In this document: one piece after another, positions 6 to 39,714 of the stretch | How positions within the stretch are numbered: the stretch's first letter is position 1 | Layout: every line of letters begins with the position of its first letter | Origin: an uncultured Planctomycetales bacterium | Lineage (GTDB): Bacteria; Omnitrophota; Gorgyraeia; Zapsychrales; JAHFFX01 | Direction of reading: 5' to 3' | Length of the DNA: 64,000 nt | Assembly: GCA_964464475.1 (NCBI GenBank) | Contig: CAYXGG010000001.1 | Coordinates: 23,174 to 87,173, forward strand | The notes under the pieces: generated by a model | The model's database searches: none | Told to the model about the DNA's origin: nothing | The model's input: the letters and a program-made list of their open reading frames with translations, nothing else | Program-made: the position numbers and the translations under genes

Positions 6-3000
6 ATGTGGGTTGAATCGGATAATGACCGGGTCGCTATTACGACCGGTGACGCGGCCACCTTGACCATTTATCGGCAAGATGGGTCAACCTCAGAAGC
101 TTCTTTAACAATGACCTTGGATGATACTAATGATTGGTGGAAATCCAATTCCTGGAACCCGTCTGACCCGCGGGACACTTACTTAGCCCGAGGTACCTGC
201 GAACAAGGAGTGAGTACCTACAACTTAACCACCGATGTGAATGTCGCTGCTCAGGCCGTTAACTGGACCGATATTTCCGACATTCGTACCAATATTGATA
301 AAGCCAATTGGGATGATTTAGGCGTTCTTACCAGTCAGGGAATTAATTGGAATGATTTGGCGAGTTTAACGACCGCTGCGGTCAATTGGCAGGATTTGGG
401 TGTGCTGACGACCCAAGGAGTTAATTATTCTGACTTTGGCGTACTGACGACGAGAGCGATCAATTGGGAAGATTTTAACGTGATGTCCATCCGCGGTGTT
501 AATTGGACGGATATCGCGGCGTTGCACGCGGTTGGCGTTAATTGGAATGATTTGTATTCATTGACCTCGGTGGCAGTCAACTGGGTGGATTTAGCCTTTA
601 TGACTTCCGCGGGGGTCAACTGGTCGGATATCGCTTATATGAGCGGATCCGGAACGAACTGGACGGCGAATGTCAATTGGGACTCGTTGGCGGAATTGAC
701 CAACGCGAGTGTTAACTGGAATGATATTTATTCCATGACTTCGAGAAACATTAATTGGGAAGATTTGAATGTCATGGCGTCCTTGGGGATTAACTGGACG
801 AATTATGCGGACATGACGCTGGTGGGAACTAATTGGAATGATATTAGTGTGTTGACCGCACGCGGTATTAACTGGAATGATGTGGGTGTTCTGACGAATT
901 TAGGCGCGAATTGGACTAACTTTGCCGATTTGACACTGGCTGGAACCAACTGGAATGATCTGACCGTCCTAACCTATGCCGCCGTCAACTGGGCTGATCT
1001 CTACGCGCTAACGACGGCCGGGGCTAACTGGAATGATTTGGGTGTTTTAACAACCGCCGGCGTGAATTGGAGTGATTTAACGGTACTCAGTCGCATTACG
1101 GTCAACTGGAATGATTTGAGTGTTTTAACGTCGCAGGGAGTTAACTGGAATGATCTCTCAACGTTAACAACCGTGGGGGTCAATTGGAACGATGTTAACG
1201 TCTTAACGACACGCGGCGTCAACTGGAACGATATTGGGATCATGACCACGCAAGGCGTTAATTGGAATGATATCAGTACCTTGACATCAACGGGCGTTAA
1301 TTGGAATGATTTAACTGTGTTGACCCGCGCGGGCGCTAATTGGGATGATTTGTATACCGTTTCTACTAAGGGGCTCAACTGGGATGAATTTCAAAGTATG
1401 ACCACCAAAGGAATTAACTGGAATAGCATCGCAGACATGTCGGCCGTCGGCGTTAACTGGAATGATATTGTTGTGCTGAGTTATGCGAGCGTTAACTGGG
1501 ACGGGATTCAGGCCATGTCGGTGGGAGGAGTTAATTGGAATGATTTAGGCACCATGTCCACGGCGGGTGTTAACTGGACGGGTATGTATGATTTGTCGGT
1601 GGCGAACACCAACTGGTCAGGTCTGAATGAGATGACCACCGCTGGCATTAATTGGACGGATGTAGGTGTTTTAAGTGCGCGCGGCATTAACTGGGATGGT
1701 ATCAATGAATTAAGCATCGGTCAGGTTAACTGGGACGGAATTCAAGCGTTATCTGTCGGGCTTGTCAATTGGACGGGTATTGCCGAGCTTTCTTATTCAG
1801 GGACAAACTGGACGGAGATTGATGTCTTGAGTCGCGCGCAGGTCAATTGGACCGGTATCCAGGATTTATCTTTTGGAGGCGTTAATTGGAATGATTTAAC
1901 GGTGTTGTCCCGCGCGGGCGCTAATTGGGATGATTTATCCGTTTTATCCGCGTCTGGCGTTAACTGGACCGATATTGACATTATGTCCGATGCCGGCGTT
2001 AACTGGAATGACCTTAGTGTTCTTACTTCTCGAGCCGTTAATTGGGAAGATCTGAACGTTATGACCACGCGGGGTGTTAATTGGGACGATTTGCAGGTGA
2101 TGAGCACTCGAGGCATTAATTGGGTCAGCTTGTACGACATGTCCGTGGCTAACATTAATTGGAATTCTTTAGAAGTTATGTCGACGTCCAACGTCAACTG
2201 GGTCGGCGTTTATGATATGTCGGCGTCAAACGTCAATTGGACGGGGATTTCCGAATTATCGATCGCCAATGTGAATTGGACCGGGGTCAATGAATTGACC
2301 GCGGCCGGTGTGAACTGGAACGATCTAGCCGTCTTTACCTCTGTCGGGACGAACTGGAATGATTTTAGCGTTATAACAAACACAGCTATTAACTGGACGG
2401 ATTTGGATTTGCTCTCCAAACAAGGGGTTAATTGGAACGATTTGGCGTCGATGACTAGCGCGGGCGTGAATTGGAATGATATTACAGTCTTGAGCCGTAC
2501 AGGCGTCAACTGGACTGGTATTTATGACATGTCGGTTTCTGGTGTAAATTGGGGAGGTATTCAGGATTTGTCCGTTGCCAATACGAACTGGACGGGGATT
2601 TATGATTTGTCCGTAGGTAACGTGAATTGGACGGGCATTCAATCGCTTTCGGAAGGTAACGTCAACTGGACTGATTTAGATGTTTTAAGTCGCTCCAATG
2701 TCAATTGGAATGATCTAACGGTCATGACGGCCACCGGGGTCAATTGGACCGGACTCAATGAATTAAGCGTGAGCGCTATTAATTGGACGGGGATTCAGGA
2801 CATGACGGCGGCCGGCGTTAACTGGAATGACCTTTCTGTTTTTAGTTACGCGCAAGTGAACTGGACTGAGATTGATAATTTAAGTCGCCAAGGAATCAAT
2901 TGGAATGATTTATCCGTTATGACGGCTTTGGGCGTGAACTGGACCAGTATCAATGATTTATCCAAAGCCGCTATTAATTGGGATGACATTACGGTGATGG

Positions 3001-6000
3001 GATACGCCGGCGTTAACTGGAATGATTTGTATTCGCTTTCAACAGCGAGTATTAATTGGAATGACTTTGCGGTTATGAATGCCACGGGGGTCAACTGGAG
3101 CGACTTAGATATTTTAAGCGAAGCGGGAATCAACTGGTTGGATATCGATGTGATGTCTCGTAATGGCGTTAATTGGAACGATTTGACTGTCATGACGCGC
3201 TCGGGTGTTAACTGGACCAATTTTTCTGACATGTCCGGGACCAACTGGACCAATATTAGTGATATGGCGGCGTCGGGGGTCAACTGGACCGGCTTTACTG
3301 ATCTATCAACGGCGGGGGTTAACTGGAATGACGTCGGGGTTATGTCATCTATCGGCGTCAATTGGAATGATTTGAACAGCTTGACAACGGCGGGGGTCAA
3401 CTGGAACGACCTGGAATCTTTAAGCAGAAAAGGCGTTAATTGGAATGATCTGGAAGTGATGTCCAATACCGGAATTAATTGGGATAATTTTTATGACATG
3501 ACCCAAGGTATTAATTGGAACAACATGTATGACTTGACTCGAGCGGGAGTTAATTGGAACGATTTGACGGTGATGACATCCTTGGGGGTTAATTGGAACG
3601 ATTTATATTCATTGTCTACGGTGGGAATTAATTGGAATGATATTGATGTCATGGCCAGAGCGGGGGTCAATTGGAATGATTTAAACTCTCTTGCCGCCGC
3701 AGGGGTGAACTGGACAGGCTTAAATGAAATTACGGTCTCCGGCGTTAACTGGAATGATATTAGTGTGCTGGCTGCGGCTGGTGTCAATTGGACGGACATT
3801 GATGTCATGAGTCGTACGAGTATTAACTGGGCGGAATTTTATACCTTAACGACTCAAGGCATTAATTGGGCGAGTATCGGTTCGATGACGACCGCAGGTA
3901 TCAACTGGAACGATATTGATACGTTAAGCCGTACGGGTGTGAATTGGGATGATTTGTACGCGCTGACCACGGCCACTATTAACTGGAATGATTTTAGCGT
4001 CATGACCAATACCGCGATCAACTGGTTGGATGTTGCCGTCATGCATAACTTGGGAGTCAATTGGTCTGACCTCGATGTGTTATCCCGGATCGGAATGAAC
4101 TGGAATGATTTGCAGGTCATTACTTCGACGGGAATCAACTGGGTGGATTTGGATATTTTAAGTGACGCTGGAGTCAACTGGGCGGACATTGATATCATGA
4201 GTGAGACGGGTATCAACTGGTCTGATTTAGACATTATGCATGACGCGGGGGTGAATTGGAATGACTTGGATGTGATGAGCGACGCGGGTGTTAATTGGAG
4301 TGATTTGACGGTGATGTCGCAGTCAGGGGTGAACTGGAACAATTTTTCACTGATGTCGGGCACTAATTGGACCAACATTAGTGATATGTCTCAGACATCC
4401 ATTAATTGGTACAGTATTGAAGAGATGTCCGGCGCGGGGGTCAACTGGAATAATTTTAGCGATATGGCGGGAGTCAGTATTAATTGGAATGACGTTGCCG
4501 TCATGGCGGCGACGGGTGTTAATTGGACCGATTTGGATATTCTGACCGAAGCCGGTGTTAACTGGAACGATTTGGATGCGCTGTCCAGAGCCGGTGTCAA
4601 CTGGAATGATTTGACGGTGATGAGTACCCGAGGGGTCAACTGGAACACGATTTATGACATGACGTCAGCGGGCATTAATTGGACGAATTTTGGGGACATG
4701 TCTTCTTCCAGTGTTAACTGGGATTCCATCGCCTTAATGGGATCTGCCAGCATTAACTGGGATGATTTTTATCTTCTGACGACTAAGGGTATCAACTGGG
4801 ACGATGTGGGACGCATGACCACAGTCGGCATTAACTGGAATGATATGACGGTTTTAACGCAAGCGGGTGTCAATTGGTCAGGATTAAATGAGTTAGCTGT
4901 ATCCAACGTTAACTGGACGGGTCTTCAAGATTTGTCGACGGCCAATGTCAATTGGAACGATTTGACTGTGTTAAGCTCGGCCGTTGTTAACTGGACGGAT
5001 TTGGCTGTCCTCTCTGAGTCGGGGGTCAATTGGAATGATCTCTCCGCGCTCAGCGTTGCGGGAGTGAATTGGAATGATATTAATGTTTTGTCTTCTCGGG
5101 GAATTAATTGGAATGATTTAGGTGTTTTAACTACTGCCGGGGCTAACTGGAATGACCTAACGGTGTTGACATCGGTTGGGGTCAACTGGAATGACCTGAC
5201 GGTCTTCTCTAATATGGGCATTAACTGGATTAATTATTCAGATTTAACAACGGCCGGAACAAATTGGTCGGACATAGAAGTGTTGTCTCGCGCTGGGGTT
5301 AATTGGAATGATTTGACTGTATTAGCTCAAGCGGGTGTCAATTGGACGGATTTAGATATTATGAGCGATGCGGGCGTTAATTGGGATGATTTGAATTCCT
5401 TGAGTCGAGCGGGAATTAATTGGTTGGAAATCGATACTTTGAGTCGCGCGGGGGTCAACTGGACGGGGCTAAATGAATTGGCGATTTCTAATGTGAATTG
5501 GACGGATCTTAATAGCATGACCACCGCCGGAGTGAATTGGGCGAGTCTATATGATCTTTCGGTCGCGGGTGTTAATTGGAATGATATCTCAGCCATGAGC
5601 TATCAAGGCGTTAATTGGAATGATTTTGGAGTCATGACGACTCAAACGATCAATTGGAATAATTTAACGGTAATGAGTAGCTCCGGTGTCAACTGGACGG
5701 ACATGGCTTACTTAACCACTTCGGGCGTTAACTGGGACAACATGAGCACCATGACCGGAGTCAACTGGACTAACGTTAGTGATATGGCGTCAGCCGGCGT
5801 TAACTGGGATAGTTTTGCGGAATTAGGAAGCGCTAATGTGAACTGGACCAACGTGAGTGACTTAAGTTATGCCGGGGTGAACTGGAATGATTTGGGTGCG
5901 ATGAGTGGGGCGGGTATCAATTGGACAGAAATTGATGTATTAAGTCGTGCCAGCGTCAACTGGACAGGCATTAATGATCTGTCCACGGCCGGCGTCAACT

Positions 6001-9000
6001 GGACGGATATGGGCGTGATGAGTTCTACGGGCGTTAACTGGACGGAGATTGATGTGCTGTCGCGTTCTGGTGTGAACTGGACGGGTATTAATGATTTATC
6101 GACTTCCGGCGTCAACTGGACGGATGTCGGATTATTAAGTAGCGCCGGGGTGAATTGGAATGATTTGTCGGTATTAACATCTACGGGCGTCAACTGGGCC
6201 GATTTGGACATCATGAGTGACGCGACCATCAACTGGGCGGATTTGGATATCATGCATGATGCGGGTATTAATTGGGAAGATTTTCAAGTCCTTACTTCTC
6301 GAGGGGTTAATTGGAATGACTTAGATGTGTTGAGCCGCGCGAATGTTAATTGGACCGGTATTAATGAAATGTCTATCGCGGGAGTTAATTGGACGGGCAT
6401 TAATGATTTATCCACCGCGGGAGTTAATTGGACGGATTTAGGGGTCCTGTCAACGGCTAGCGTTAACTGGAACGATCTGACGGTGATGACTAGTCTTGGG
6501 ATTAACTGGACGGACATGGGTGTCATGTCATCTTCCGGGGTCAACTGGGTAAACTTTAATGAAATGTCCGGTGTGAATTGGACTAACTTAGGCGAAATGT
6601 CAACCTCAGGATTAAATTGGAACGATTTAACGGTGATGTCATATAGCGGTGTTAATTGGGACAGTTTTGGCGCGATGAGCACCGCGGGCATTAACTGGAA
6701 TGATATTGGAACATTATCATCGGCAGGGGTTAACTGGACAGAAATTGATGTGTTATCTCGCGCGGGCGTTAACTGGTCGGGATTAAATGATTTATCTGTT
6801 GCCGGGGTCAACTGGAATGATTTATCCGTCATGAGCTCGGTGGGAGTTAATTGGACGGAAATTGACGTGCTGTCACGCGCTGGGGTCAACTGGACGGGGA
6901 TCAATGATTTGTCAACGGCTGGAATCAATTGGACGGATGTCGGATTATTAAGTAGCGCCGGGGTGAATTGGAATGATTTGACGGTATTAACGTCGGCTGG
7001 TGTTAATTGGGCCGATTTGGACATCATGAGTGACGCGAGTATTAATTGGGCGGATTTGGATATCATGCACGATGCGGGCGTGAATTGGGATGATTTGCAA
7101 TCCATGTCGACGAGAGGTGTTAACTGGACTGACATAGATGTCTTAAGTCGTGCGAATGTGAATTGGACGGGCATCAATGAATTATCCGTTGCCGGAGTCA
7201 ACTGGGTGGGGATGCAGGATTTGTCGATTGCCGGGGTCAACTGGACCGATATTGGCGTGATGGGAGCCACGGGTATTAACTGGACCGACTGGGACGTGAT
7301 GACGCGCGCGGGCATTAACTGGAATGATTTAAGTTCCATGTCTGCTTCCGGCGTAAATTGGGCTAACTTTTCAACGATGTCTGGGGTGAACTGGACCAGC
7401 ATTAGTGAAATGGCGTCGGCAGGAATTAACTGGGATAATTTCGCGGACATTGCAGCTGCCGGTGTCAACTGGGACAACGTTTCGGTGATGTCCTATTCTG
7501 GCATTAATTGGAATGATTTTGGGGTAATGTCATCCTCAAGTATTAACTGGACGGAAATTGATGTTTTAAGTCGCGCCGGAGTCAACTGGGTTGGCGTTAA
7601 TGATCTGTCTTTGGCGGGCGTCAACTGGAATGATTTATCGGTGATGAGTGGCGTTGGGGTTAACTGGACGGAAATTGATGTTTTAAGTCGCGCGGGTGTG
7701 AACTGGACAGGAATCAATGATTTGTCCGCCGCAGGGATCAACTGGACGGACATGGGAGTTTTGAGCGCGGCCGGTATTAACTGGACCGATATTGATGTGT
7801 TGAGTCGGACCGCGATTAACTGGAATGATCTTACCGCCATGACCACGACGGGTGTGAATTGGGCTGATTTAAATTATCTGACCAACCTGGGGCTAAACTG
7901 GAATGATATTCAGGTTATGTCGTCTCGGGGAATTAACTGGGATGATTGGACGGTGTTAAGTCGGGCGGGAGTTAACTGGGATGATTTTAATCGTTTATCA
8001 TCTTCCGGAATGAACTGGGAAGATATTCAAGTCATGACGACGCGCGGCATCAACTGGACCGACGTTGATACTTTAAGTGAAGCGGGCATTAACTGGCTTG
8101 GTGTTCAAGACCTTTCGGTGGGCGGAGTTAATTGGCTTGGGATGCAGGATCTTTCTATCGCCGGGGTCAATTGGAACGATCTCAACGTGATGAGTACTTC
8201 TGTCATCAATTGGACGGATTTTGGTGTCATGAGTGTTGCGGGTGTCAACTGGACGGATATGTCGGTGATGACGCAGGCCGGTGTGAATTGGTCGAACTTC
8301 TCAACGATGTCCGGGGTCAACTGGACCAGCATTGGCGAAATGGCTTCGGCTGGGGTTAATTGGGACAATTTTGCGGACGTCGCTAACGCGGGAGTCAACT
8401 GGGATAACGTGGGTGTGATGACCTACGCCGGTGTTAACTGGAATGATTTAGGTTCCATGACCTCGGCCAATATTAACTGGACGGAATTAGACGTGTTAAG
8501 CCGCGCCGGCGTCAACTGGGTTGGTGTTAATGATTTGGCAGCGGCGGGCGTTAACTGGAATGATTTGTCGGTGATGAGCGCGGTCGGCGTCAACTGGACG
8601 GAAATTGATGTCTTGAGTCGCGCGGGGGTCAACTGGACGGGAATTAACGAGTTATCCTCGGCGGGAGTGAACTGGACCGACCTCGGTGTTTTGAGTGGGG
8701 TTGGGATCAATTGGTTTGATTTGGATGTGTTGAGCCGTACGGGGGTGAACTGGTCTGATTTAGATGTGATGTCGGATGCCAGCATTAATTGGAATGATTT
8801 TCAGGCTTTATCGTCGACCGGCATTAATTGGAATGATTTGACGGTCATGAGCGCTCAGGGCGTTAACTGGACGGAAATTGATGTCTTAAGTCGCTCCGGC
8901 GTCAACTGGACTGGCATTCAGGATTTGTCCTTAGGGGGAGTCAACTGGACTGACTTGGGAACTTTGACGGCGGCGGGAATTAATTGGAATGATTTAAACG

Positions 9001-24803: not shown

Positions 24804-24818
24804 AGGCGGACAATCTAC

Positions 24819-27162
<2,344 letters not shown>

Positions 27163-29369: not shown

Positions 29370-29382
29370 CCAATTAAAGTCT

Positions 29383-30591: not shown

Positions 30592-30592
30592 G

Positions 30593-31414: not shown

Positions 31415-31427
31415 TCAACTAAAAGGA

Positions 31428-31853: not shown

Positions 31854-31854
31854 A

Positions 31855-32277
31855 TTGTTTGTCCCTGGATTAGCCCTACCATCGGGAAGGCGGCGTCAGC
31901 CTAAAGGGATGACATTTTTGGAAGTGCTTTTGACAGCGTCGATCCTCTCTTTGGGGTTTGTTGGGGTTTATCGAATTTATTTTTCAATTTTTGACGCGTA
32001 TCATCATTTATCCTGTCGCTTACAGGCTTTTAATGTCATGAATGATCACTTAAGTCAGCTGCAGCGGTATCTTCAGGATAGTGGTCAGCTGCCTTTGGGA
32101 GGAGAGTCCCAGAGTCGGACTGTGACCATTGATCGGCAGGAAGTTGTTTTTTCTACACAGTCTCACTGGGAAAACGTTGATGATCTACCTAAAATATTCC
32201 GAGTGACGATTGAATTAAATTGGCGAGAACGTTTGGGCCCCAAACAGTTAACCCGAACCCTATTTCTTTCCGCCTAA
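31855..32277 (+). CDS. Minor pseudopilin / prepilin-like protein (GspH/I-like). Its start is uncertain, either TTG at 31855 or ATG at 31909.
   Basis: It contains the prepilin-type N-terminal helix G-MTFLEVLLTASILSLGFVGVY preceded by a basic leader (GRRRQPKG). The upstream 40 codons of the ORF-track call overlap gspG and were discounted. Confidence 0.55.
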   Translation: MFVPGLALPSGRRRQPKGMTFLEVLLTASILSLGFVGVYRIYFSIFDAYHHLSCRLQAFNVMNDHLSQLQRYLQDSGQLPLGGESQSRTVTIDRQEVVFSTQSHWENVDDLPKIFRVTIELNWRERLGPKQLTRTLFLSA

Positions 32278-32289
32278 CCATAACTATCC

Positions 32290-32919
32290 GTGCGCACTAT
32301 TTCCCATCCGTTATTTCGAAAGAAGAGTCATACGAGCGGTTTTACGTTGCTAGAGACTCTGCTGGTCGCGTCGTTAGTCTCGCTTGTGGGTGCCGCATTA
32401 TTTCAGGCGGTAACCAATGGATTAAAGCTTTGGCAACGCAGCCGAATCGTGGTTGTTGAGGAAGATGCGTTGATTTTTTTTGATAAATTGGCAAGAGATT
32501 TGGAAAACAGTGTGCGTTTTTCATTGCTTTCTTTTGATGGAAAGTCGCGCCGCTTGATTATTCCCACCCGGGTGCAGATTGAGCCTGAGCCCCGTTCGTC
32601 TTTTCGGCAGGATCAACTGACGACACAGCTGGGGCTCGTGGAGTATTCCTGGGACGCGGCGAGCCATGCGGTTATCCGACGACAATCTTCCTATGGAGAG
32701 GCTTTGGCGCGCAGCTTCGGTCCGCCTCAAACATTAGTGACTTCCGTCGACGCGATGCGTTTTCGCTATTTTGCGGATGGGGGAGATGGTAGGGCCTCCC
32801 CGCGCGAAGCCGTGAGCTATCGGCCCTTGGCGGTAGAGGTTCACCTAACGCTTAAAGATGAACGTGGCGAACGTAATCTTAGTCGATTCATTAACTTGCC
32901 TTTTGGGGGACAACCATGA
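32290..32919 (+). CDS. Minor pseudopilin (GspJ/PilW-like, 209 aa).
   Basis: The leader ends ...KKSHTSG and is followed by FTLLETLLVASLVSLVGAALF, a class III signal with Glu at +5. Its size and position between pseudopilin genes support the call. Confidence 0.6.
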   Translation: MRTISHPLFRKKSHTSGFTLLETLLVASLVSLVGAALFQAVTNGLKLWQRSRIVVVEEDALIFFDKLARDLENSVRFSLLSFDGKSRRLIIPTRVQIEPEPRSSFRQDQLTTQLGLVEYSWDAASHAVIRRQSSYGEALARSFGPPQTLVTSVDAMRFRYFADGGDGRASPREAVSYRPLAVEVHLTLKDERGERNLSRFINLPFGGQP

Positions 32920-33959
32920 AACGCTGTCTACGTTCCCGGCAAGGAAGTTTGCTGGTATTGGCTTTATGGTCTTTGGGGTTGTTGGCGGTGTTGGTGATCG
33001 CGATGGCATCCAATTTACGCCAGAAAATGAGTTTGTTGGGGCGATTGGAAAAACGAGAGACTACTCTGGCGGTCGCTCAGGCGGGGGTTCAGTACGCCAT
33101 GGCTTTTTTAAATAATGATCTGGAGAAGAATGGCTTTGATCTAACGCACAAAACAAAAATGAACCGGATGAATAATCCCCATCGCTTTAACGAGATCATA
33201 CTTCCGGATGGAGTTGCGCAAGTGAGCTATCAACTTTCCGTCGGCGGTGTTGAATCGGAAAAAATGTATGGTATCATGGATGAAGAAAGTAAAATAAATC
33301 TTAATCACGTCGACGAGAAGGTCATCCGATCCTTGCTGGGAGAAATTTTGAAATTAAGCGGTGATGAATTGGATCAATTATCAGTGAGTATTGCGGATTG
33401 GCGCAAAATTGGTTCCAGCGAACTGTCCGGATTTTATAGTGATGATTATTATCAAAATTTACGTTCGCCCTACCCGGTCAAGGACGCGGATTATGAACTA
33501 TTAGATGAATTGTTGCTGGTTCGGGGCATGTCTCAGGAGATTTATGACGTGGTGCGTTCCTATGTCACCCTCCTGGGAGATGGTCGGGTGAATGTTAACA
33601 CGGCTTCTGGACCAGTTTTGCGAGCTTTGGGGTTGGATTCATTGGTCGTTGATAAAATTTTAATAGCCCGCTCGGGGGCAGACGGCCAAGAAGCCACGGC
33701 CGATGATTTATTTTTTATGCGTCCTTACGATGTGGCGACCGACGTTCATTCGATAGTCCCTCTGAAACCTGAAGAAATTGCTCAGATTGAAGAAGTGAAT
33801 GCCCGCGGATTGCTGGGGATCCAATCCAGTTTTTATCGGATAGAAAGTTTCGGTCGTCTCTCGGGAGCCTCATCGGGGGAAAAAATCATGGCTATTTTTG
33901 ATGCCACACAGCGTAAATGCATCTACTGGCATCAGGAATCAACGGCGAGTTTAAATTAA
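32916..33959 (+). CDS. gspK: GspK-like minor pseudopilin (347 aa).
   Basis: The N-terminus RQGSLLVLALWSLGLLAVLVIAM is GspK-type (GSALvlvLw..llL..l). It has a large periplasmic domain. There is a 4-nt overlap with the upstream gene. Confidence 0.6.
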   Translation: MKRCLRSRQGSLLVLALWSLGLLAVLVIAMASNLRQKMSLLGRLEKRETTLAVAQAGVQYAMAFLNNDLEKNGFDLTHKTKMNRMNNPHRFNEIILPDGVAQVSYQLSVGGVESEKMYGIMDEESKINLNHVDEKVIRSLLGEILKLSGDELDQLSVSIADWRKIGSSELSGFYSDDYYQNLRSPYPVKDADYELLDELLLVRGMSQEIYDVVRSYVTLLGDGRVNVNTASGPVLRALGLDSLVVDKILIARSGADGQEATADDLFFMRPYDVATDVHSIVPLKPEEIAQIEEVNARGLLGIQSSFYRIESFGRLSGASSGEKIMAIFDATQRKCIYWHQESTASLN

Positions 33960-33961
33960 CC

Positions 33962-35476
33962 ATGTTCTCAGCGGAACCAGATAATATCAGTGTCAGTTTA
34001 GTGAATGATGTCCTGCGGGTCGCGGGAGTTCGTGCGTCCGGTTCTTCACTGGAAGTGGTTATTTGCGCAAAACGTGACGTTAAAGGGCAGACCGAGGATG
34101 AAATTGCTAAAACGCTTCGATCCGTGTTAACGGGAGTCAATTTTAAAAAGATTCCAGCTTATTGCCTGATTCCACCGTCAGCCGTCACGACCAAAAATAT
34201 CGAGATTCCTTCCAAAGATCCTACGGAAATCAAATCAATTATTAATCTTCAGGCCGGGAGGCATACCCCGTACTCTCGAGAAGAAATTCAAATGGGTTAT
34301 ATCAACATCGGAGTCTATCAAGTTAACTACACCAAGGTTTTGCTAGTCATCGCCAACCGCCAAGTTATTAAGACGCCGCTGCGTATCATGGAGGCGGCCG
34401 GATTAAGGGTGGAAAAGGTTCTTTTTTCTCCAGAAGGGATCGGGCATTTCTATGGAAAAGCTTTAGGCTTTTCCCGGCACGATTCCCCCATTGGTATTAT
34501 TGATGTCGCCCAGGACGGGACCGATTTTATGATTGTGCTTAAAGGTATTGTTATTGCTTGCCGGCATATCCCTTGGGGCGCTTCGCAATTGGCTCAAGGA
34601 CAAAGTCATTTGAAAAAGCTAGTTGAAGAAATCCGTTTGTCGGTGGAAGCGTACATTAATGAAGATATTGATAAGCCTCCGCTACAGTATTTATTGACAT
34701 CGAAAGATCCCTTAGTGGCCGCTTTGGTCGAGCCTTTGTCGGTCCAATTATCAGTTCCGGTAAAGATTGAAGCGTATCGGGAAAAAATGCGTTTGACCGG
34801 TCCCGTTCAAAAAATATTGGCACCAATGGCGTCGGATTCCTTCTTGGATATTTTTGCTGGGGTTTACCAGCCTGCCGAAGCGCAGATCGATTTGCTACCT
34901 GAAGAAACCAAATTGCAACGCAGCATTCAATCCCAGGGCCACGAAGTCATCAAACTCGGCGCGTATGTCATTACCATTCTTATTTTCTTGACCTGCTTGT
35001 TCTTCGGTGAAATCTATTTTAAGAATACATTCTTAACTAAATTAAATGCTACTTATAGCAAACACCATGATCAGGTGGCGCAGCTTGAGAAGATTGCCGC
35101 GCGTACACGCATCGTCAAAGATTTTTTTAACAGTCGTATGACTACCTTAGAGGCGACTAAAGAGCTCTATAGGCTTTTACCGCAAGAAATATATCTGGAA
35201 AGCTTTTTATTGGATGATAAGGGAGCTTTAAGCATTAAAGGTATTTCCGAATCCATGTCCAAGGTTTTTTCTTTGGTTACGGCATTGGAAGAATCGAGTC
35301 TTTTTAAGAATGTTAAGACTCAGTCGACCAGCGCTAAGAAAGAGCGGGGCAAAGACGTTGCGGCTTTTGAGATTATTTTTAAGCTTGAGACTGCCAAGGA
35401 TGATCCGTCTCAGGTTAAAGGTGATACTAAAAAAGAAAATGCGAGTACTGAGGCCTCACGAGAGAATAAATCATGA
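33962..35476 (+). CDS. PilM-PilN fusion / GspL-like assembly protein: a cytoplasmic actin-like domain, one transmembrane helix and a periplasmic domain (about 505 aa).
   Basis: A PilM-like segment ...LLVIANRQVIKTPLRIMEAAGLRVEKVLFSPEGIGHFY is present. The internal transmembrane helix is LGAYVITILIFLTCLFFGEIYF, followed by a periplasmic region. An ATG 2 nt after the gspK stop was chosen over the overlapping upstream start. Confidence 0.55.
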   Translation: MFSAEPDNISVSLVNDVLRVAGVRASGSSLEVVICAKRDVKGQTEDEIAKTLRSVLTGVNFKKIPAYCLIPPSAVTTKNIEIPSKDPTEIKSIINLQAGRHTPYSREEIQMGYINIGVYQVNYTKVLLVIANRQVIKTPLRIMEAAGLRVEKVLFSPEGIGHFYGKALGFSRHDSPIGIIDVAQDGTDFMIVLKGIVIACRHIPWGASQLAQGQSHLKKLVEEIRLSVEAYINEDIDKPPLQYLLTSKDPLVAALVEPLSVQLSVPVKIEAYREKMRLTGPVQKILAPMASDSFLDIFAGVYQPAEAQIDLLPEETKLQRSIQSQGHEVIKLGAYVITILIFLTCLFFGEIYFKNTFLTKLNATYSKHHDQVAQLEKIAARTRIVKDFFNSRMTTLEATKELYRLLPQEIYLESFLLDDKGALSIKGISESMSKVFSLVTALEESSLFKNVKTQSTSAKKERGKDVAAFEIIFKLETAKDDPSQVKGDTKKENASTEASRENKS

Positions 35477-36192
35477 TCCAACAGTGGTTTGTTAAATTAT
35501 CCGCGGGAGAGCGCAAACTTTTTTATGGGGCGGCGGCTTTTTTATTGTTGGCGGTCATTGACCGTTCTTTCTGGGGGCCGGTCCGGGCGCAATTAAAACA
35601 AGTTGAAGAACGCATTCGGCACGAAGAAGGTAATATCCGGCAGAATTTGCGATTGCTAGCGTATAAAAAACGCATACTTGAAGAACAGGACGTATTCTCA
35701 TCTTATTTTATCCAGAAAGTAAGTTCGGAAGAAGAAATTATTGCCGAGTTTCTCAAGAAAATTGAAATCATGGCTACTGAAGCCAATATTAATTTAATCA
35801 AAGTGACGCCTTCAGAAGGTAAGCAGCGCAAGGGTTTTAAAGAGTATCTTGCGAGTTTGGAATGCGCCGGAAATATGGAACAGTTAATTAAATTTTTGCA
35901 TTTAATTGATGGATCTAAAGATTTATTGCGGACTTCCAAATTAGCGCTGCTACCTAAGAAAGGGTCCGAGACCAACGAAGTCAACGCGACGATGGCCATC
36001 ACCAAGGTGTTGATTGATCCTTTAGAAGGTATGCCGATGACTTCGAAAAAGAATAAGACGATTCGACTGGAAGATCTCGGTATCCAGGGCACGATGAATG
36101 TCCCCGTTAAGATGGAGTCCAACGTTCCCCCGGAGCCAAATGCGAAACCCAAAAGAGGAAATGTCGATGCGGTTAAGTTTTCGCAAGATTAA
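35473..36192 (+). CDS. PilO/GspM-like bitopic inner-membrane assembly protein (239 aa).
   Basis: It has a short cytoplasmic N-terminus, one transmembrane helix (LFYGAAAFLLLAVI) and a coiled-coil plus periplasmic domain. Its position after the GspL-like gene with a 4-nt overlap supports the call. Confidence 0.45.
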   Translation: MIQQWFVKLSAGERKLFYGAAAFLLLAVIDRSFWGPVRAQLKQVEERIRHEEGNIRQNLRLLAYKKRILEEQDVFSSYFIQKVSSEEEIIAEFLKKIEIMATEANINLIKVTPSEGKQRKGFKEYLASLECAGNMEQLIKFLHLIDGSKDLLRTSKLALLPKKGSETNEVNATMAITKVLIDPLEGMPMTSKKNKTIRLEDLGIQGTMNVPVKMESNVPPEPNAKPKRGNVDAVKFSQD

Positions 36193-37021
36193 AGTTTCCA
36201 TTATCTTTCTCATCGGGCTGCTGGCGTGGGCTGCGGGTGTTGCGGTCCCCGTTGCCGTTGCGCAACAAGAAATCCGGGACATCTATCAGCAGGCTGAGAC
36301 CGCGTTTAACGCTGGTGAGTATCAGAAAGCGATCAACCTTTTTGAAAAGGTTTTGGACCTGAATCCCAAATTTGCTCCCGCTTACAACGCTATTGGGCTT
36401 TGTCATAAGCAGATGAACACGCCATTGCCGGAAGTAATTTGGTATTTTAAGACAGCCCTAGAATATGATCCCAATTTTGTTGATGCCAGTAGTAGCCTTG
36501 CCAAGGCTTATTATGGGTTAGGCCAATTCGATAATGCCGAAAAAGTTTGTTTGGATGGACTGAAAATTAATCCGGACCACCTGGATTCAAAGCTGTCGTT
36601 GGGTTGGATTTACTTGCTGGGGAAGGGGAAACCTAAAGACGCGATTCCTTATTTCAAGGATGTCTTTGATCAGGCTCAGCTACCTAATGCGGCGCTCGGG
36701 CTGGGCATGGCGTATTTTATGAGTGATGATCGCGTGGGGGCCATGGATATGATTACGGCGCTGAAAGAATTAAAACAGATTGATATGGCGACACAGCTCG
36801 AGAATATGGTGCGTGGCAATGAGTTTAATAAGGAAGAAGAAGGTCGGCAGTTAGTTCATCCTGTTGAGCGCCCACCGCCTCGCGTTGCCCCGGGGGGAAC
36901 GACTATCACGGGTGCTAGCGGCGTGATGCGCGTGCGTTTACGCGGTAAACTCATCAATATGGGAAACGCGGAGATTCAAGGTTCCGCCAGTTCGGGGAAT
37001 CCTTCCGCAAGTTCGTATTAG
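36161..37021 (+). CDS. Secreted tetratricopeptide-repeat (TPR) protein. It may be a pilotin- or PilF-like protein; that is speculative.
   Basis: The signal peptide is MSMRLSFRKIKVSIIFLIGLLAWAAGVAVPVAVAQQ. TPR-like helices are present (YQKAINLFEKVLDLNPKFAPAYNAIGLCH; ALEYDPNFVDASSSLAKAYYGLGQFDNAEKV). It is the last gene of the + strand run. Confidence 0.55.
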   Translation: MSMRLSFRKIKVSIIFLIGLLAWAAGVAVPVAVAQQEIRDIYQQAETAFNAGEYQKAINLFEKVLDLNPKFAPAYNAIGLCHKQMNTPLPEVIWYFKTALEYDPNFVDASSSLAKAYYGLGQFDNAEKVCLDGLKINPDHLDSKLSLGWIYLLGKGKPKDAIPYFKDVFDQAQLPNAALGLGMAYFMSDDRVGAMDMITALKELKQIDMATQLENMVRGNEFNKEEEGRQLVHPVERPPPRVAPGGTTITGASGVMRVRLRGKLINMGNAEIQGSASSGNPSASSY

Positions 37022-39714
37022 TTTTCCCTGCTCGTTAGGGGTCCATCCAGTTCCTGCCGAAAATTATTCCAGTTGATTTCATAAACCAAAATCTGAGTTC
37101 TTCCCGTCAGGTCGCTGTCGGCAAAGAAGGGTTTAAAGAATTTAAGCCCTTGACCTTTGAAATAATATAATCGAAATAGCACTGAGCGCGCTAATCGAGG
37201 ATCCGCGAGGATGACGCTGAGGCGACCGTTATCATCTAATAACAGCACGTTATAGCCTAGAGTGTTGCCGGGAATTTTGGCTTCTACGTATTGTCCCTGC
37301 TCATCGAGGTATTGAATGGCCGCCGGAATTCCCTGGCCAAATTTAGGGGAGCGGATTTCGCAGCGTTTGGTCGATAAGTTTATGGCGACTCCCTGATCGA
37401 AGAGTACCGTATCGCCGGAGAGACCAACTGCATGAAGTGGTTCACTGTAGTGCAACGGCCCACCCGCTAGATTCCAAAGGAAATCAATATATTCTTTACT
37501 TTTGCGCGATGGAAGCTTAGCGCGTGTTGCTGGATGGGCGTTGATTTCTTCCACTTTCTTAAAATTCCAGCGATCCAGGAAACTTAATATCAGGCTTTTC
37601 TCGACGATTTCATTGTAAATGAATAGATATGCCGGTGGGGGTGCGGCGTGCGTGAGTTTAAGTAACGCGCGGGATTGTTCTGGAGGGAATGAGGCGTTGT
37701 TTAAAAACAGTTGGGCTTGGAATGGGTTGAGGCCGCCAATGACTTTGAGGAGTTCGACCGCTACGGATGTTTTGGCGCCGAGGCTGACCAAATAATCGCA
37801 GGCGGCGTTGGCGCTGTTGTTAAGCATGCGCAATATGCCTAAGGCTTCACGTTCATCGGTGGCTAGAAAAACATTAGCCATCCAGTAGGCTTGAGGAAAA
37901 TTAATGGTAGCTCCGTCAAAGGTGACACGACGCTTGGCCATCGCCTTGATAAAGTGCCCTGGCGGCCACCAGGAATTGACGATGGCGTCCTGAGGCGTCG
38001 CTTGATTTATTTTCTGGAACGCGTTGTCCCAGGTACGATTGTAGATGCGGGTAATTTGAGATGGCGTTGTCACCTGGGCGTGGATGACCGCCGGAATCAT
38101 CAGTAGCAACGGGATACTTCCGAGCGAAAGTTTGAACCAAGAGAAAGAGTTCTGCTTGTTCTGGGGGAATGGGAATTTGCTTTCAAGCCAATGCGTGAGT
38201 TCTTCCAGTCCAAAACAAATCAGCAGAACGAGTGGCGTTAAGAATAATAACGCGAAACGCTGAGCTCCTAAGGTCAGTAAGAAAGCGCTAGTGGCTAAGG
38301 CGAAGAATAGAATAATGCCAAAATAATTAGATTTCTCCCGGGATGAAAAGAATTTAATCGCGACGAGACCAGCGCCGAAGGCTCCTAATATTAATATCCA
38401 GCCACCGCCGCTGAGTTCAATCAAATCCGCTAAGGTCATCCGCTTTAATTCTCCGACGGTCACATAAATATCCGGCCAGATGGATAATTGCGGATTCATA
38501 AAATCTTTGAGCGCTTTGAGTCCTTCCGAAAATAGAGCAAAGAATTGAGTCGGTCCGAAAGTCACCGCAATACCTAAGAATGTCCCCAGCGCGAATGCCG
38601 GCCATATGAGCCAGAATCCCTTGCGGCGCTGGGTTACGGGTACGAGCCAGAGATTGAGTCCAGAAAGGATGATCAAGGTCAGGGTAATGATCGTAAAGTG
38701 AAACATCCAGCCGTGCCAGAATAGCGCGTAAAGATTCATAATAAGTCCTGCGATAAAACCGCTAAACAATCGTCCTCGGGGATTACTACCATCACGAAAT
38801 GCCAGTAACAGCGGCAGGCAAACCAGAAGCGGAAAAAGTAAACTGTAGGGGTCGTTGTCGTACCAGCCAAAAAGACTGCGTTTGATGAGTAGCGGGCAGC
38901 AAGCTAGTAGCATCGCTCCAGCCAGAGTCGTCATCGGGCGGAAATTAAGTAGCCACCCCGTCCAGACGAAGGCCAATAAGAAGAAGGCGGTGATGATTAG
39001 AGGCGTAAAGCTGACCGCGTACATGAGCTCGGTCTCTGGGCGAAAGAATTTGAGTACGTGATAAATAGTCAATCCCACATATGGATGAAGCGTTAAGGGC
39101 TCCCAGTGTCCCTCCGGGGCGAGCATCAGGCGATTTAAATATTTGCTGCCGGATTGGGAGTCACTTAAACGTCCGGTCGAAAGTAGGTTGTCGGTCAGGT
39201 TGTAATAATTAAAAGGGTCCGCTTCCAGAAGATAAGGATAACGCTGTGGGCCTGGCTGGGCCTTCTCTATTTGGACAGCCAGACGTTCAATGCGCTGCAA
39301 CAATGATTTGCTTTCAGTGTGCATGCGACGATCAAATTCTTTCTTGATGGTTTGGTCGCGAATTGCTTCGGGTAACTGTGGGGAATGCGTGATAATTTGT
39401 TCAGCGACACTGGCGCGCAATTGATTGATGGCCAATAGGCTGGCTTTCTCGTAAGACTCAGTGGAATAAAAATGACGCAGCGGGTAACTACGGAAATAAA
39501 GGGCTACCAGCACGGCAAGTATCCAAACCAGCGCATAGGCACCGAACGTGAGCGCGAATGAGGGGCGTAGCGTTGTCGGAGCTGGAGGTTGGGCTAAGGG
39601 AATATTTTTCATAACGGAAAAGATTGAGGCCATTGTAATGGGCGTTGGCAAGGGATGCAAGCCCGGAGCGGAAATTCTTAATCTGGAACGAGCATATTTT
39701 GAAAAAGTCGGCAA
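37018..39714 (-). CDS. Large multi-pass membrane protein with a C-terminal soluble domain (898 aa). It is a putative GT-C fold STT3/AglB-family oligosaccharyltransferase-like enzyme.
   Basis: It has roughly 13 predicted transmembrane helices in the N-terminal 520 aa. The first external loop carries LLEADPFNYYNLT, which resembles the STT3/AglB EL1 motif DP(Y/F)FNYR. A later loop carries SWWPPGHF, a variant of the WWDYG motif. A C-terminal periplasmic domain of about 370 aa is present. An alternative start lies at M28 (39633). Confidence 0.45.
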   Translation of the reverse strand: MPTFSKYARSRLRISAPGLHPLPTPITMASIFSVMKNIPLAQPPAPTTLRPSFALTFGAYALVWILAVLVALYFRSYPLRHFYSTESYEKASLLAINQLRASVAEQIITHSPQLPEAIRDQTIKKEFDRRMHTESKSLLQRIERLAVQIEKAQPGPQRYPYLLEADPFNYYNLTDNLLSTGRLSDSQSGSKYLNRLMLAPEGHWEPLTLHPYVGLTIYHVLKFFRPETELMYAVSFTPLIITAFFLLAFVWTGWLLNFRPMTTLAGAMLLACCPLLIKRSLFGWYDNDPYSLLFPLLVCLPLLLAFRDGSNPRGRLFSGFIAGLIMNLYALFWHGWMFHFTIITLTLIILSGLNLWLVPVTQRRKGFWLIWPAFALGTFLGIAVTFGPTQFFALFSEGLKALKDFMNPQLSIWPDIYVTVGELKRMTLADLIELSGGGWILILGAFGAGLVAIKFFSSREKSNYFGIILFFALATSAFLLTLGAQRFALLFLTPLVLLICFGLEELTHWLESKFPFPQNKQNSFSWFKLSLGSIPLLLMIPAVIHAQVTTPSQITRIYNRTWDNAFQKINQATPQDAIVNSWWPPGHFIKAMAKRRVTFDGATINFPQAYWMANVFLATDEREALGILRMLNNSANAACDYLVSLGAKTSVAVELLKVIGGLNPFQAQLFLNNASFPPEQSRALLKLTHAAPPPAYLFIYNEIVEKSLILSFLDRWNFKKVEEINAHPATRAKLPSRKSKEYIDFLWNLAGGPLHYSEPLHAVGLSGDTVLFDQGVAINLSTKRCEIRSPKFGQGIPAAIQYLDEQGQYVEAKIPGNTLGYNVLLLDDNGRLSVILADPRLARSVLFRLYYFKGQGLKFFKPFFADSDLTGRTQILVYEINWNNFRQELDGPLTSREN

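What the first reader, a model, noticed from the sequence alone, without database searches (positions are those of the whole stretch)
250..39714. The giant protein's invariant Asn sits in an N-W-T/S sequon in a large fraction of units, a possible massively N-glycosylated fibre
Position 4 of the unit is Asn and position 5 is Trp. Position 6 is Thr or Ser in many units (GVNWTDI, GINWSDL, GVNWTGI...). By eye this is well over a hundred times, concentrated from about 5.7 kb onward, while the first 5 kb is mostly NWND. Each of these creates an N-x-S/T sequon at a structurally fixed site. With an STT3-like enzyme encoded 17 kb away on the opposite strand, a reasonable hypothesis is a fibre decorated by a regular array of N-glycans, as on archaeal S-layer proteins and pilins. 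Campylobacter-type PglB needs D/E at -2, which is absent here (Gly at -2). So if this is real it would be an AglB- or STT3-like relaxed specificity.
Basis: inference. Interest (0 to 1): 0.7.

Follow-up and report, generated by a model that had tools for sequence, protein, structure and literature searches.

The report
Giant secreted Asn-Trp repeat fibre, Omnitrophota
A giant secreted protein of an Omnitrophota bacterium is built from 493 copies of a 13-residue Asn-Trp repeat, a third of which happen to form N-glycosylation motifs, and it lies in a conserved gene cluster ending in an unusual STT3-like glycosyltransferase; the sequence gives no sign that those motifs are selected for.

Summary
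The count is real. The ORF (open at the window's left edge, stop at 20141) has 493 N-W units of 13 residues, and 155 are N-W-S/T. This is not a special enrichment. Ser/Thr at that position (32%) matches the other variable positions (30-34%), and total sequons are only 1.28x the compositional expectation. Asn stays 99-100% fixed although two thirds of units lack Ser/Thr.

The preconditions of the hypothesis hold:
- Gene 37018-39714 is a true STT3-family member with intact catalytic motifs.
- It sits beside the cluster in 13 of 19 informative NW-type loci, and in 0 of 12 non-NW loci.
- Complete homologues of the giant carry signal peptides.
- The giant plus the next gene equal one membrane-anchored surface protein in sister clusters.

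However, the enzyme's Ser/Thr-reading WWDYG motif is WW[P/S/C/T/A]PG[H/Y] in all 79 homologues, with no Asp. Two AlphaFold runs failed (pLDDT 41 and 50), so Asn exposure is unknown.

Verdict: this is a secreted repeat fibre whose sequons look incidental. Glycosylation is plausible but unproven, and if it occurs it may not be sequon-directed. Both the repeat family and the STT3-like clade appear undescribed.

The parts
3..20141 (+). Giant ORF, 5'-truncated by the window edge. 6711 codons run from the ATG at 6, and the frame is open from nt 3. The stop codon is at 20139-20141.
   Evidence: The residues from nt 3 (YMWVESDNDR...) align to residue 212 onward of homologue P0109, which starts with a signal peptide. 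No hydrophobic segment occurs in the window part (max KD19 = 1.22).
3..251 (+). End of the non-repeat N-terminal domain that precedes the array.
   Evidence: alignment to P0109 residues 212-300. This stretch alone found no homologues in the word-based protein search or in the metagenome scans.
252..19361 (+). Array of 493 units of 13 residues, consensus [A/S/T]-G-[V/I]-N-W-x-D-[I/L/F]-x-x-[M/L]-[S/T]-x. 155 units read N-W-S/T. 23 units are shortened to 11 residues.
19362..20138 (+). C-terminal domain of about 260 aa with 'TDxSxxxT[L/I/V]FG' motifs and a helical region. It ends in VVVKSWFESGE.
   Evidence: Conserved in orthologues. It is collinear with the region just before the unk448-like domain in fused type-2 giants.
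20160..21506 (+). Partner protein 'unk448': N-terminal signal peptide (AFA|S, or a lipobox-like LLSC), a periplasmic domain, one C-terminal transmembrane helix and a basic tail. It is the probable membrane anchor for the fibre.
   Evidence: A chimera of the giant's last 160 aa plus mature unk448 aligns without a break across the junction to single type-2 ORFs (E = 4e-30, 8e-23, 2e-21).
21622..27162 (+). F-type ATPase-like genes: alpha, epsilon, c, a 79-aa two-TM ORF, b/delta fusion, gamma and beta. No 'a' subunit ORF is present.
   Evidence: The order is conserved in related loci.
27165..36192 (+). Type II secretion / type IV pilus-like genes: E ATPase with a PilZ domain, F, a Peptidase_MA_2 gene, pseudopilin G (31428-31853), minor pseudopilins, K, PilM/N and an M-like gene.
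36098..37021 (+). TPR protein, last gene of the cluster. Its 3' end overlaps that of the STT3-like gene by 4 nt.
   Evidence: It is adjacent to the STT3-like gene in all OST-centred loci.
37018..39714 (-). STT3-like glycosyltransferase (898 codons from TTG; the first Met is at 39633). Motifs: E164-A-D166, D286-N-D288, T419-V-G-E422, R486, W582-W-P-P-G-H and D600-G.

Best explanation
The N-W-S/T motifs are a real but incidental by-product of the repeat, not a selected glycosylation code.

The array is the shaft of a secreted giant surface protein of an Omnitrophota bacterium. Each 13-residue unit fixes Gly2, Val/Ile3, Asn4, Trp5, a hydrophobic residue at 8, Met/Leu11 and Ser/Thr12. Asn and Trp are held for the fold or for binding. 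Position 6 (the sequon +2 site) is a tolerant small or polar surface position that takes S, D, A, T, N and E.

Inference: position 6 lies next to the N-cap of a short helix spanning positions 8-13, which ends in a Gly2 Schellman-type cap.

The protein is exported by a signal peptide that lies just upstream of the window. It probably docks by its C-terminal strand onto the product of the next gene, a membrane protein with a single C-terminal transmembrane anchor. In sister clusters these two genes are one polypeptide.

The whole unit belongs to a conserved cluster with an F-type ATPase-like operon and a type II secretion/type IV pilus-like machine. In NW-type clusters it usually ends in a convergent STT3-like gene. 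That enzyme keeps the catalytic residues of oligosaccharyltransferases but has lost the Asp that reads the +2 Ser/Thr.

Shown: the repeat statistics, the family membership of the enzyme, the synteny, the split/fused relationship and the signal peptides in homologues.
Inferred: the docking, the local secondary structure and the absence of selection for sequons.

The fibre and the enzyme probably meet in the periplasm, and some glycosylation of the fibre is plausible. If it happens, it need not follow N-x-S/T.
For: Repeat statistics:
- S/T by unit position: position 6 = 32.0%, position 13 = 34.4%, position 1 = 30.5%.
- Sequons are 196 against 155 +/- 10.6 after shuffling (ratio 1.28). A homologous-context giant that does look sequon-selected (L027) has 57 against 18.9, z = 11.
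- Across 24 orthologues (1066 units), Asn before Trp is 98.8%. The +2 residue is S .21, D .18, A .14, T .10, N .10, E .08, and S+T ranges from 13% to 68% per orthologue.

Enzyme:
- The motif is WW[P/S/C/T/A]PG[H/Y] in all 79 homologues and WW[P/S/A/C]PG[H/Y] in every cluster-linked copy in which it lies within the sequenced stretch (23 of 24 ORFs), while DxD is kept in all.
- WWDYG together with DK/MI forms the Ser/Thr pocket (PMC8342417). All known AglBs keep WWDYG (PMC4287180).

Export and anchoring:
- Signal peptides are present in the complete members P0100, P0106, P0107 and P0109.
- P0106 sits in the same gene context.
- The window's N-terminus aligns to P0109 from residue 212.
- The chimera alignment runs across the junction into type-2 ORFs, and profile-profile comparison supports it.

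Structure and synteny:
- A helix at unit positions 8-13 was predicted in both AlphaFold runs, at low confidence.
Against: - The STT3-like gene tracks NW-type clusters specifically (13 of 19 against 0 of 12; Fisher p = 1.4e-4, not corrected for phylogeny). This argues for a functional tie to something in this cluster, possibly the fibre itself.
- The closest long relative, P0100, has 59% S/T at +2 over 74 units, and parts of the window array reach 47%. Lineage-specific enrichment therefore cannot be excluded.
- S/T at +2 is still the commonest residue class, both in the pooled orthologues and in the window.
- No confident 3-D model exists, so the structural role of Asn is argued from conservation only.
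- The helix-capping reading rests on models with pLDDT 41 and 50 and on motif reasoning.
Confidence: 0.55

Rival explanations
1. The STT3-like enzyme transfers a lipid-linked glycan to the Asn of the roughly 155 N-W-S/T units as the chain emerges into the periplasm. The result is a fibre with a regular glycan array, as on archaeal S-layer proteins, archaellins and pilins.
For: - The enzyme is in the STT3 family with intact catalytic motifs.
- The fibre is secreted, judged from homologues.
- The gene is syntenic with NW-type clusters only.
- S/T is the most frequent class at +2, reaching 59% in relative P0100.
- Bacterial OSTs that do not need D/E at -2 are known (PMC4894442).
Against: - There is no excess of S/T at +2 over other variable positions, and overall sequon enrichment is only 1.28x.
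- S/T at +2 ranges from 13% to 68% among orthologues.
- Asn is invariant in the 69% of units that lack a sequon.
- The clade has no Asp in the WWD motif that binds the +2 hydroxyl (PMC8342417).
- From my own knowledge: Trp at the X position lowers N-X-S efficiency for eukaryotic OST.
- No glycan-assembly genes lie in the window.
Confidence: 0.15
2. The STT3-like enzyme serves other substrates of the cluster or of the cell, such as pseudopilins, the unk448 anchor, the TPR protein or unrelated envelope proteins. Its adjacency reflects the secretion/pilus machine or conserved gene order rather than the NW array. Any modification of the fibre is minor, or is O-linked by other enzymes.
For: - The gene is always next to the TPR gene and the pilus-like genes.
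- The transketolase/transaldolase flank is also conserved in several genomes although it is functionally unrelated, so gene order alone is weak evidence.
- In L030, L032, L034 and L036 the same position holds a WecB epimerase, a GT2 and a PMT_2-like GT-C. L022 has such a PMT_2-like GT-C between the TPR and STT3-like genes, and L024 has a membrane protein without a Pfam match there. This suggests a swappable glycosylation module, possibly O-linked or lipid-directed.
- Unit position 12 is 85% Ser/Thr.
Against: - The major pseudopilin of the window has no N-x-S/T sequon (sequence).
- Type-2 clusters carry the same pilus-like genes but no adjacent STT3-like gene. The link is therefore to the NW-type version, not to the pilus machine as such.
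Confidence: 0.2
3. A non-canonical acceptor. The WWxPGH clade has changed specificity and recognises the invariant Asn-Trp (perhaps G-[V/I]-N-W-x-D) irrespective of Ser/Thr. Potentially every one of the 493 or more units would then be glycosylated.
For: - The enzyme keeps the metal and lipid-phosphate ligands but lacks the +2-reading Asp in all 79 members.
- The only strictly invariant polar residue of the unit is the Asn.
- The enzyme co-occurs with NW-type clusters and not with Ig-type clusters.
Against: - No STT3-family enzyme is known to work without a +2 hydroxy residue.
- Invariant Asn and Trp in a short repeat are more simply explained by packing and hydrogen bonding.
- There is no experimental or structural support here.
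- L010, L018 and L021 carry NW genes but have no adjacent STT3-like gene.
Confidence: 0.08

Closest known systems
STT3 / AglB / PglB oligosaccharyltransferases (GT66), including relaxed-specificity Desulfovibrio PglB
   Same: - Pfam STT3 domain above the gathering cutoff.
- Multi-spanning N-terminal half plus a C-terminal soluble domain.
- ExD and DxD acidic motifs, a TIXE-like TVGE and a conserved Arg, all aligned to STT3A and AfAglB structures.
- A single-subunit bacterial enzyme, like PglB.
   Different: - WWDYG is WW[P/S/C/T/A]PG[H/Y] in every member. The Asp and Tyr of the Ser/Thr pocket are absent.
- It is encoded at the end of a pilus-like/giant-protein cluster, not in a pgl- or agl-type glycan-assembly cluster.
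- Its activity, donor and acceptor are all unknown.
Heavily N-glycosylated archaeal surface proteins (S-layer glycoproteins, archaellins, pilins modified by AglB)
   Same: It is a secreted or surface protein with many N-x-S/T motifs, in a genome that encodes a single-subunit STT3 homologue.
   Different: - The sequons here are not enriched beyond the composition of the repeat's variable positions.
- The Asn is invariant independently of the sequon.
- No glycan has been detected.
Giant Omnitrophota proteins (Archaeovorin and Dockerin types; bioRxiv 10.1101/2023.11.21.568195 and 10.64898/2026.06.07.730766)
   Same: Same phylum. It is a very long protein encoded beside secretion-system-like genes and is presumably a cell-surface structure.
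   Different: - The segments scanned gave no Pfam domain above threshold, so none of the HEAT, GT, SecA, dockerin or TSP3 content of those classes was found.
- There are no internal transmembrane helices.
- It is built from one undescribed 13-residue unit.
- The neighbouring locus differs from the gspD/rcpC locus described there.
HMW1 adhesin / HMW1C cytoplasmic N-glycosyltransferase of Haemophilus influenzae
   Same: It is a large secreted bacterial adhesin-like protein with many N-x-S/T sites that might carry sugars.
   Different: - No GT41-type enzyme was found among the window ORFs scanned against Pfam.
- The candidate enzyme here is a periplasm-facing, lipid-linked-donor type.
Asn-ladder solenoids (leucine-rich repeats, beta-helices)
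   Same: It is a short repeat with an invariant Asn next to conserved hydrophobic positions.
   Different: - The 13-residue period is too short for known LRR or beta-helix coils.
- Predicted secondary structure is one short helix per unit.
- No solved relative exists, and there is no confident model.

Membership tests
STT3/AglB/PglB oligosaccharyltransferase (GT66) | STT3 Pfam domain above the curated cutoff | tested here: met
   PF02516, 63.3 bits against a cutoff of 24.5, residues 159-546. All 79 homologues carry PF02516.
STT3/AglB/PglB oligosaccharyltransferase (GT66) | Multi-spanning membrane N-terminal half followed by a soluble C-terminal domain | tested here: met
   Ten hydrophobic window clusters lie between residues 51 and 531, and none lies after about residue 550. 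This is a crude Kyte-Doolittle scan only.
STT3/AglB/PglB oligosaccharyltransferase (GT66) | Two acidic (DXD/EXD) motifs and the TIXE/SVSE motif that build the catalytic site | tested here: met
   E164-A-D166, D286-N-D288 and T419-V-G-E422. D166, D286, D288, E422 and R486 are invariant in 22 aligned homologues and align to the STT3A motifs.
STT3/AglB/PglB oligosaccharyltransferase (GT66) | WWDYG motif (Ser/Thr-binding pocket) | tested here: not met
   WWPPGH in the window. The motif is WW[P/S/C/T/A]PG[H/Y] in all 79 homologues and, as WW[P/S/A/C]PG[H/Y], in every locus copy in which that region is present (23 of 24 ORFs), never with Asp. The motif's role is taken from PMC8342417 and PMC4287180.
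STT3/AglB/PglB oligosaccharyltransferase (GT66) | DK or MI motif, and DGGK / DNXTZNX[T/S] motif | tested here: inconclusive
   The invariant D600-G601 ('FDGAT') aligns with the D of the STT3A 'DNNTWN' motif. No DK or MI equivalent could be assigned from sequence.
STT3/AglB/PglB oligosaccharyltransferase (GT66) | Transfer of a lipid-linked glycan to Asn of a protein | not testable with these tools
   This needs biochemistry.
OST substrate: N-glycosylated secreted protein | Exported across the cytoplasmic membrane | tested here: met
   This is by homology, because the window lacks the first 210 or so codons. Complete relatives P0100, P0106, P0107 and P0109 begin with hydrophobic signal sequences. 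The fused type-2 homologues have one C-terminal transmembrane helix with a basic tail.
OST substrate: N-glycosylated secreted protein | N-x-S/T sequons present | tested here: met
   196 sequons, of which 155 are N-W-S/T.
OST substrate: N-glycosylated secreted protein | Sequons enriched or conserved beyond composition | tested here: not met
   The ratio to shuffles is 1.28. The +2 S/T frequency equals that of other variable positions. It ranges from 13% to 68% among orthologues. L027 shows a ratio of 3.0 for contrast.
OST substrate: N-glycosylated secreted protein | Acceptor Asn accessible (not buried) | tested here: inconclusive
   Two AlphaFold2 runs with pseudo-alignments of 23 and 95 array segments gave pLDDT 41 and 50, and pTM 0.20 and 0.17.
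Campylobacter-type PglB acceptor | D/E at -2 (D/E-x-N-x-S/T) | tested here: not met
   There are 0 such sites. Residue -2 is Gly in 84% of units.
Omnitrophota Archaeovorin / Dockerin-type giant proteins | Characteristic domains (HEAT, GT, SecA-DEAD, many TM helices; or dockerin/TSP3) | tested here: not met
   Three segments of the protein (the first 500 aa, aa 2001-2500 and the C-terminal 276 aa) gave no Pfam hit above threshold, and the 493 units tile aa 83-6452 with almost no gaps. No transmembrane segment is present.

The most novel reading that the evidence does not exclude
A phylum-wide clade of bacterial STT3-like enzymes has replaced the Ser/Thr-reading WWDYG motif with WWxPGH. It has co-evolved with the Asn-Trp repeat fibre and glycosylates the invariant Asn of G-[V/I]-N-W-x-D units without needing a +2 hydroxy residue. 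The fibre would then carry hundreds of regularly spaced N-glycans. This would be a new N-glycosylation acceptor rule and the most densely N-glycosylated protein known.
Probability: 0.08. Interest if true: 0.9.

Novelty: new variant of a known kind. Interest (0 to 1): 0.55.

Why it matters
Outside Campylobacterota and some Desulfobacterota, bacterial STT3-type oligosaccharyltransferases are rare and poorly understood. Here a whole Omnitrophota clade keeps the catalytic core but lacks the motif that defines the universal N-x-S/T rule. It is also genetically tied to one class of giant surface protein.

That gives a concrete, testable pairing of one enzyme with one repetitive substrate that can be cloned as short fragments. 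The pairing can be used to ask whether N-glycosylation can run on a different acceptor code.

Independently, the work defines:
- an undescribed 13-residue extracellular repeat family (479 cluster representatives);
- the fact that the giant gene and its neighbour are a split form of one membrane-anchored protein;
- a clear caution that sequon counts in Asn-rich repeats are not evidence of glycosylation.

Tried and rejected
- Structure prediction of the array was tried twice (20 units with 23 pseudo-homologues; 10 units with 95). Both gave low confidence (pLDDT 41 and 50), so no fold search was run.
- 'Short' 360-415 aa homologues that seemed to start directly with repeats and lack signal peptides were rejected. 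Their loci show scaffold gaps, contig ends or frameshifts, with more NW units upstream. An apparent N-terminal match in L089 ('LEWYRSDV') was an out-of-frame reading across an N-gap.
- Searches with the window's first 85-92 residues found nothing: word-based protein search, exact DNA match in JGI metagenomes and degenerate patterns in metagenomes. The N-terminus was resolved only through the HMMER representative search.
- The Pfam Lysostaphin_N hit (E = 1.3e-10, 41.7 bits against a cutoff of 60) was rejected. From my own knowledge, lysostaphin's propeptide consists of 13-residue tandem repeats of unrelated sequence, so I judged the sub-threshold hit an artefact of shared periodicity; this was not checked here.
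- The PDB profile hit to flagellin (E = 0.004) and the weak HflD, FlhA and PHROG hits were judged compositional.
- P0180, in which every unit reads 'NWT', is a different simple repeat and was not counted.
- Unit-to-unit autocorrelation gave no clear super-period that could inform the fold.
- The look-up of the window's own OST contig failed, so the source assembly was not identified.
- The literature held nothing on Omnitrophota STT3 or N-glycosylation. The secretion locus described next to giant genes by West-Roberts et al. is a different one.
Full report
**What is in the sequence**

The window's first gene is one uninterrupted + strand reading frame that stops at 20141. Its product contains 493 Asn-Trp dipeptides between residues 86 and 6443. 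Of the spacings, 465 are exactly 13 residues and 23 are 11 residues. The unit is therefore 13 residues long, with consensus [A/S/T]-G-[V/I]-N-W-x-D-[I/L/F]-x-x-[M/L]-[S/T]-x.

Asn and Trp are invariant in all full units, and Gly two residues before the Asn occurs in 84% of units. The residue after Trp is N 124, T 108, D 65, S 47, A 47, L 33, with others rarer. This gives 155 N-W-S/T motifs (31%). There are 41 further sequons elsewhere and no D/E-x-N-x-S/T site.

The fraction of N-W-S/T per 500 residues is 0.22, 0.47, 0.26, 0.38, 0.47, 0.46, 0.46, and then 0.15 to 0.31. At DNA level the units are old and diverged. TRF finds almost nothing, and 148 of the 155 N-W-S/T 13-mers are distinct.

**Is the sequon frequency more than chance?**

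Against the protein's overall Ser+Thr content (18%) it is (p = 1e-12). That is the wrong null for a repeat, however. Ser/Thr occupies 32.0% of position 6, 34.4% of position 13 and 30.5% of position 1. The sequon +2 position is therefore not special.

All sequons together number 196, against 155 +/- 10.6 in composition-preserving shuffles, a ratio of 1.28. For contrast, the giant protein of locus L027 occupies the equivalent place in a sister cluster and has 57 sequons against 18.9 expected (z = 11). That is what selection for sequons looks like in this phylum.

In 24 orthologous arrays (1066 units), Asn before Trp is 98.8% conserved. The +2 residue is S .21, D .18, A .14, T .10, N .10, E .08, and S+T varies from 13% to 68% between genomes. 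Asn is thus equally fixed in the two thirds of units that cannot be canonical sequons, so its conservation must have another cause.

**The enzyme**

The product of 37018-39714 (- strand) matches Pfam STT3 at 63 bits, against a cutoff of 24.5. It has 79 full-length relatives, and those that carry a source name are mostly labelled Candidatus Omnitrophota.

A profile of 22 of these relatives aligns to human STT3A and to Archaeoglobus AglB structures. The first acidic motif (E-A-D166), the DxD (D286, D288), a TIXE-like T-V-G-E422 and the conserved Arg486 are all invariant.

However, the WWDYG motif reads WWPPGH. All 79 homologues, and every cluster-linked copy in which that region is present (23 of 24 ORFs), read WW[P/S/C/T/A]PG[H/Y] and never carry Asp. 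WWDYG together with the DK/MI motif forms the pocket for the sequon's Ser/Thr (PMC8342417), and it is described as present in all AglBs (PMC4287180). A defining feature of the family is therefore tested and not met. This weakens any argument built on N-x-S/T.

The lack of an acidic residue at -2 is not itself a problem, because relaxed bacterial OSTs exist (PMC4894442).

**Is the giant protein exported?**

The part in the window has no hydrophobic segment, and its first 85 residues are not repeats. At first, apparently short homologues suggested that the family lacks signal peptides. Their loci show that they are truncated by scaffold gaps, contig ends or frameshifts.

A full HMMER search of 1.84 billion representatives found 479 relatives. 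These include complete proteins that begin with clear signal sequences: P0106 (900 aa, 26 units), P0100 (2809 aa, 74 units), P0107 and P0109. P0106 lies in the same gene context as the window's giant.

The window's reading frame, read from nt 3, aligns to P0109 from residue 212 (YMWVESDNDR against YAWIEEDNDR). The ORF therefore runs off the window by about 210 codons, and the true protein almost certainly has a signal peptide.

**Context and co-occurrence**

Loci centred on relatives of the cluster's secretion ATPase were fetched from 80 species-level genomes and annotated by BLAST with the window's proteins.

A conserved 'type-1' cluster reads, in order:
- the NW-repeat gene (always running off the contig or locus end);
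- unk448;
- the F-type ATPase-like genes alpha, epsilon, c, b/delta, gamma and beta;
- the type II secretion/type IV pilus-like genes E(+PilZ), F, a Peptidase_MA_2 gene, pseudopilins, K, PilMN and M;
- a TPR gene;
- a convergent STT3-like gene.

The STT3-like gene is present directly after the TPR gene, or within about 3 kb, in 13 of 19 NW loci that extend far enough. It is also present in four more type-1 loci that lack upstream coverage, and in three OST-centred genomes.

'Type-2' clusters have a different ATPase gene order and a giant protein made of Ig-like repeats. They have no adjacent STT3-like gene in 0 of 12 informative loci (Fisher p = 1.4e-4, uncorrected for phylogeny).

Two caveats apply. 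The unrelated transketolase/transaldolase flank is also conserved in several genomes. Whole genomes could not be inspected.

In four NW loci without the enzyme, the same position holds a UDP-GlcNAc 2-epimerase, a GT2 and a PMT_2-like GT-C. In L022 such a PMT_2-like GT-C lies between the TPR gene and the STT3-like gene, and in L024 a membrane protein with no Pfam match does. This points to a swappable glycosylation module at this spot.

**A split surface protein**

The gene after the giant (unk448, 20160-21506) encodes a signal peptide, a large soluble domain, one C-terminal transmembrane helix and a basic tail.

A chimera of the giant's last 160 residues joined to mature unk448 aligns collinearly, with no break at the junction, to the C-terminal part of single type-2 ORFs. 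The junction VVVKSWFESGE|SIYINLVAANAS matches IIAVSYTSG-SVIVRVVVVNPS, with E = 4e-30, 8e-23 and 2e-21. A profile-profile comparison agrees.

The NW giant plus unk448 is therefore the split form of one C-terminally anchored giant surface protein. By inference, the fibre sits outside the cytoplasmic membrane, docked to unk448. That is the compartment where an STT3-type active site works.

**Fold and the Asn**

There is no Pfam, NCBIfam or PDB relative. Two AlphaFold2 runs failed to give a confident model (pLDDT 41 and 50), so the burial test is inconclusive.

Both runs place a short helix at unit positions 8-13. The pattern D7 (N-cap-like), hydrophobic 8 and 11, then Gly2 followed by Val/Ile3 fits a helix with a Schellman-type C-cap. 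The mix of S, T, D and N at position 6 is typical of residues flanking helix N-caps. This is inference, not a result.

**Conclusion**

The preconditions for glycosylation hold: a real STT3-family enzyme, a secreted substrate and conserved linkage. The sequon itself shows no signature of selection, and the enzyme lacks the residue that reads it.

I estimate the alternatives as follows:
- incidental sequons on a structural repeat: 0.55;
- the enzyme acting mainly on other substrates: 0.2;
- a non-canonical Asn-Trp acceptor rule: 0.08.

Neither the repeat family nor the WWxPGH STT3-like clade appears in the searched literature.

Noticed in passing
window 21622-27162 (+); also L001, L002, L009-L066, L068, L069 and L082: An F-type ATPase-like operon (alpha, epsilon, c, a 79-aa two-TM ORF, b/delta fusion, gamma, beta) with no 'a' subunit ORF lies between the giant gene and the secretion/pilus-like genes. 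The arrangement is conserved across dozens of Omnitrophota loci and a few Lentisphaerae-labelled ones, in two gene orders. It is unclear whether this is the cell's ATP synthase or a dedicated motor.
   Followed up: partly
L025, L027, L039-L045, L048, L052, L061 and L063 (upstream ORFs): In 'type-2' clusters the giant protein is a single chain: Ig-like repeats, then a helical region, then an unk448-like domain, then a C-terminal transmembrane helix. The window's giant plus unk448 is the split version of this chain.
   Followed up: yes
L027:3-4085 (+) (Omnitrophica WOR_2 GWF2_43_52): The Ig-like part of this giant protein has 57 N-x-S/T sequons against 18.9 expected (z = 11; 6.3 per 100 aa). This is a much stronger candidate for heavy N-glycosylation than the window's protein, yet no STT3-like gene lies next to its cluster.
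   Followed up: partly
L030, L032, L034 and L036 (about 17.6-21.7 kb); L022:14827-16242; L024:18658-19899; L059:18169-21527: After the TPR gene, four NW-type loci carry a UDP-GlcNAc 2-epimerase, a GT2 and a PMT_2-like GT-C instead of the STT3-like gene. L022 has a PMT_2-like membrane protein between the TPR gene and the STT3-like gene; L024 has a membrane protein without a Pfam match there. L059 has two tandem STT3-like paralogues.
   Followed up: partly
window 27165-29369 (+) and 30530-31414 (+): The secretion ATPase (T2SSE/MshEN) carries a C-terminal PilZ domain. A Peptidase_MA_2 gene sits between T2SSF and the major pseudopilin. The Pfam scans of the ORFs of 150 aa or more across the window returned no secretin or prepilin-peptidase family.
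   Followed up: no
window giant, 23 sites such as aa 1069-1080 and 2180-2191: The 23 shortened 11-residue units ('...N-F-S-x-M-S-G-V-N-W-T-S-I...') recur roughly every 21 units in the middle of the array. They account for most of the 15 extra N-F-S sequons, and they hint at an older super-repeat of about 271 residues.
   Followed up: partly
P0113, P0117 and P0120; P0131, P0138 and P0183 (one search hits): Short runs of the same 13-residue N-W module occur in other signal-peptide proteins with unrelated N- and C-terminal domains. They also occur in small 'G-I-N-W-T' proteins whose C-termini end in 'VVYAE' or 'IIYAE'. The module is therefore a wider extracellular repeat, not confined to this cluster.
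   Followed up: no
window 43396-52010 (+): A heavy-metal type efflux set lies downstream: an outer-membrane factor, a CusB-like fusion protein with HMBD domains and an RND pump. It is followed by YHS/TRASH-domain proteins and an ArsP-like permease. It appears unrelated to the finding.
   Followed up: no
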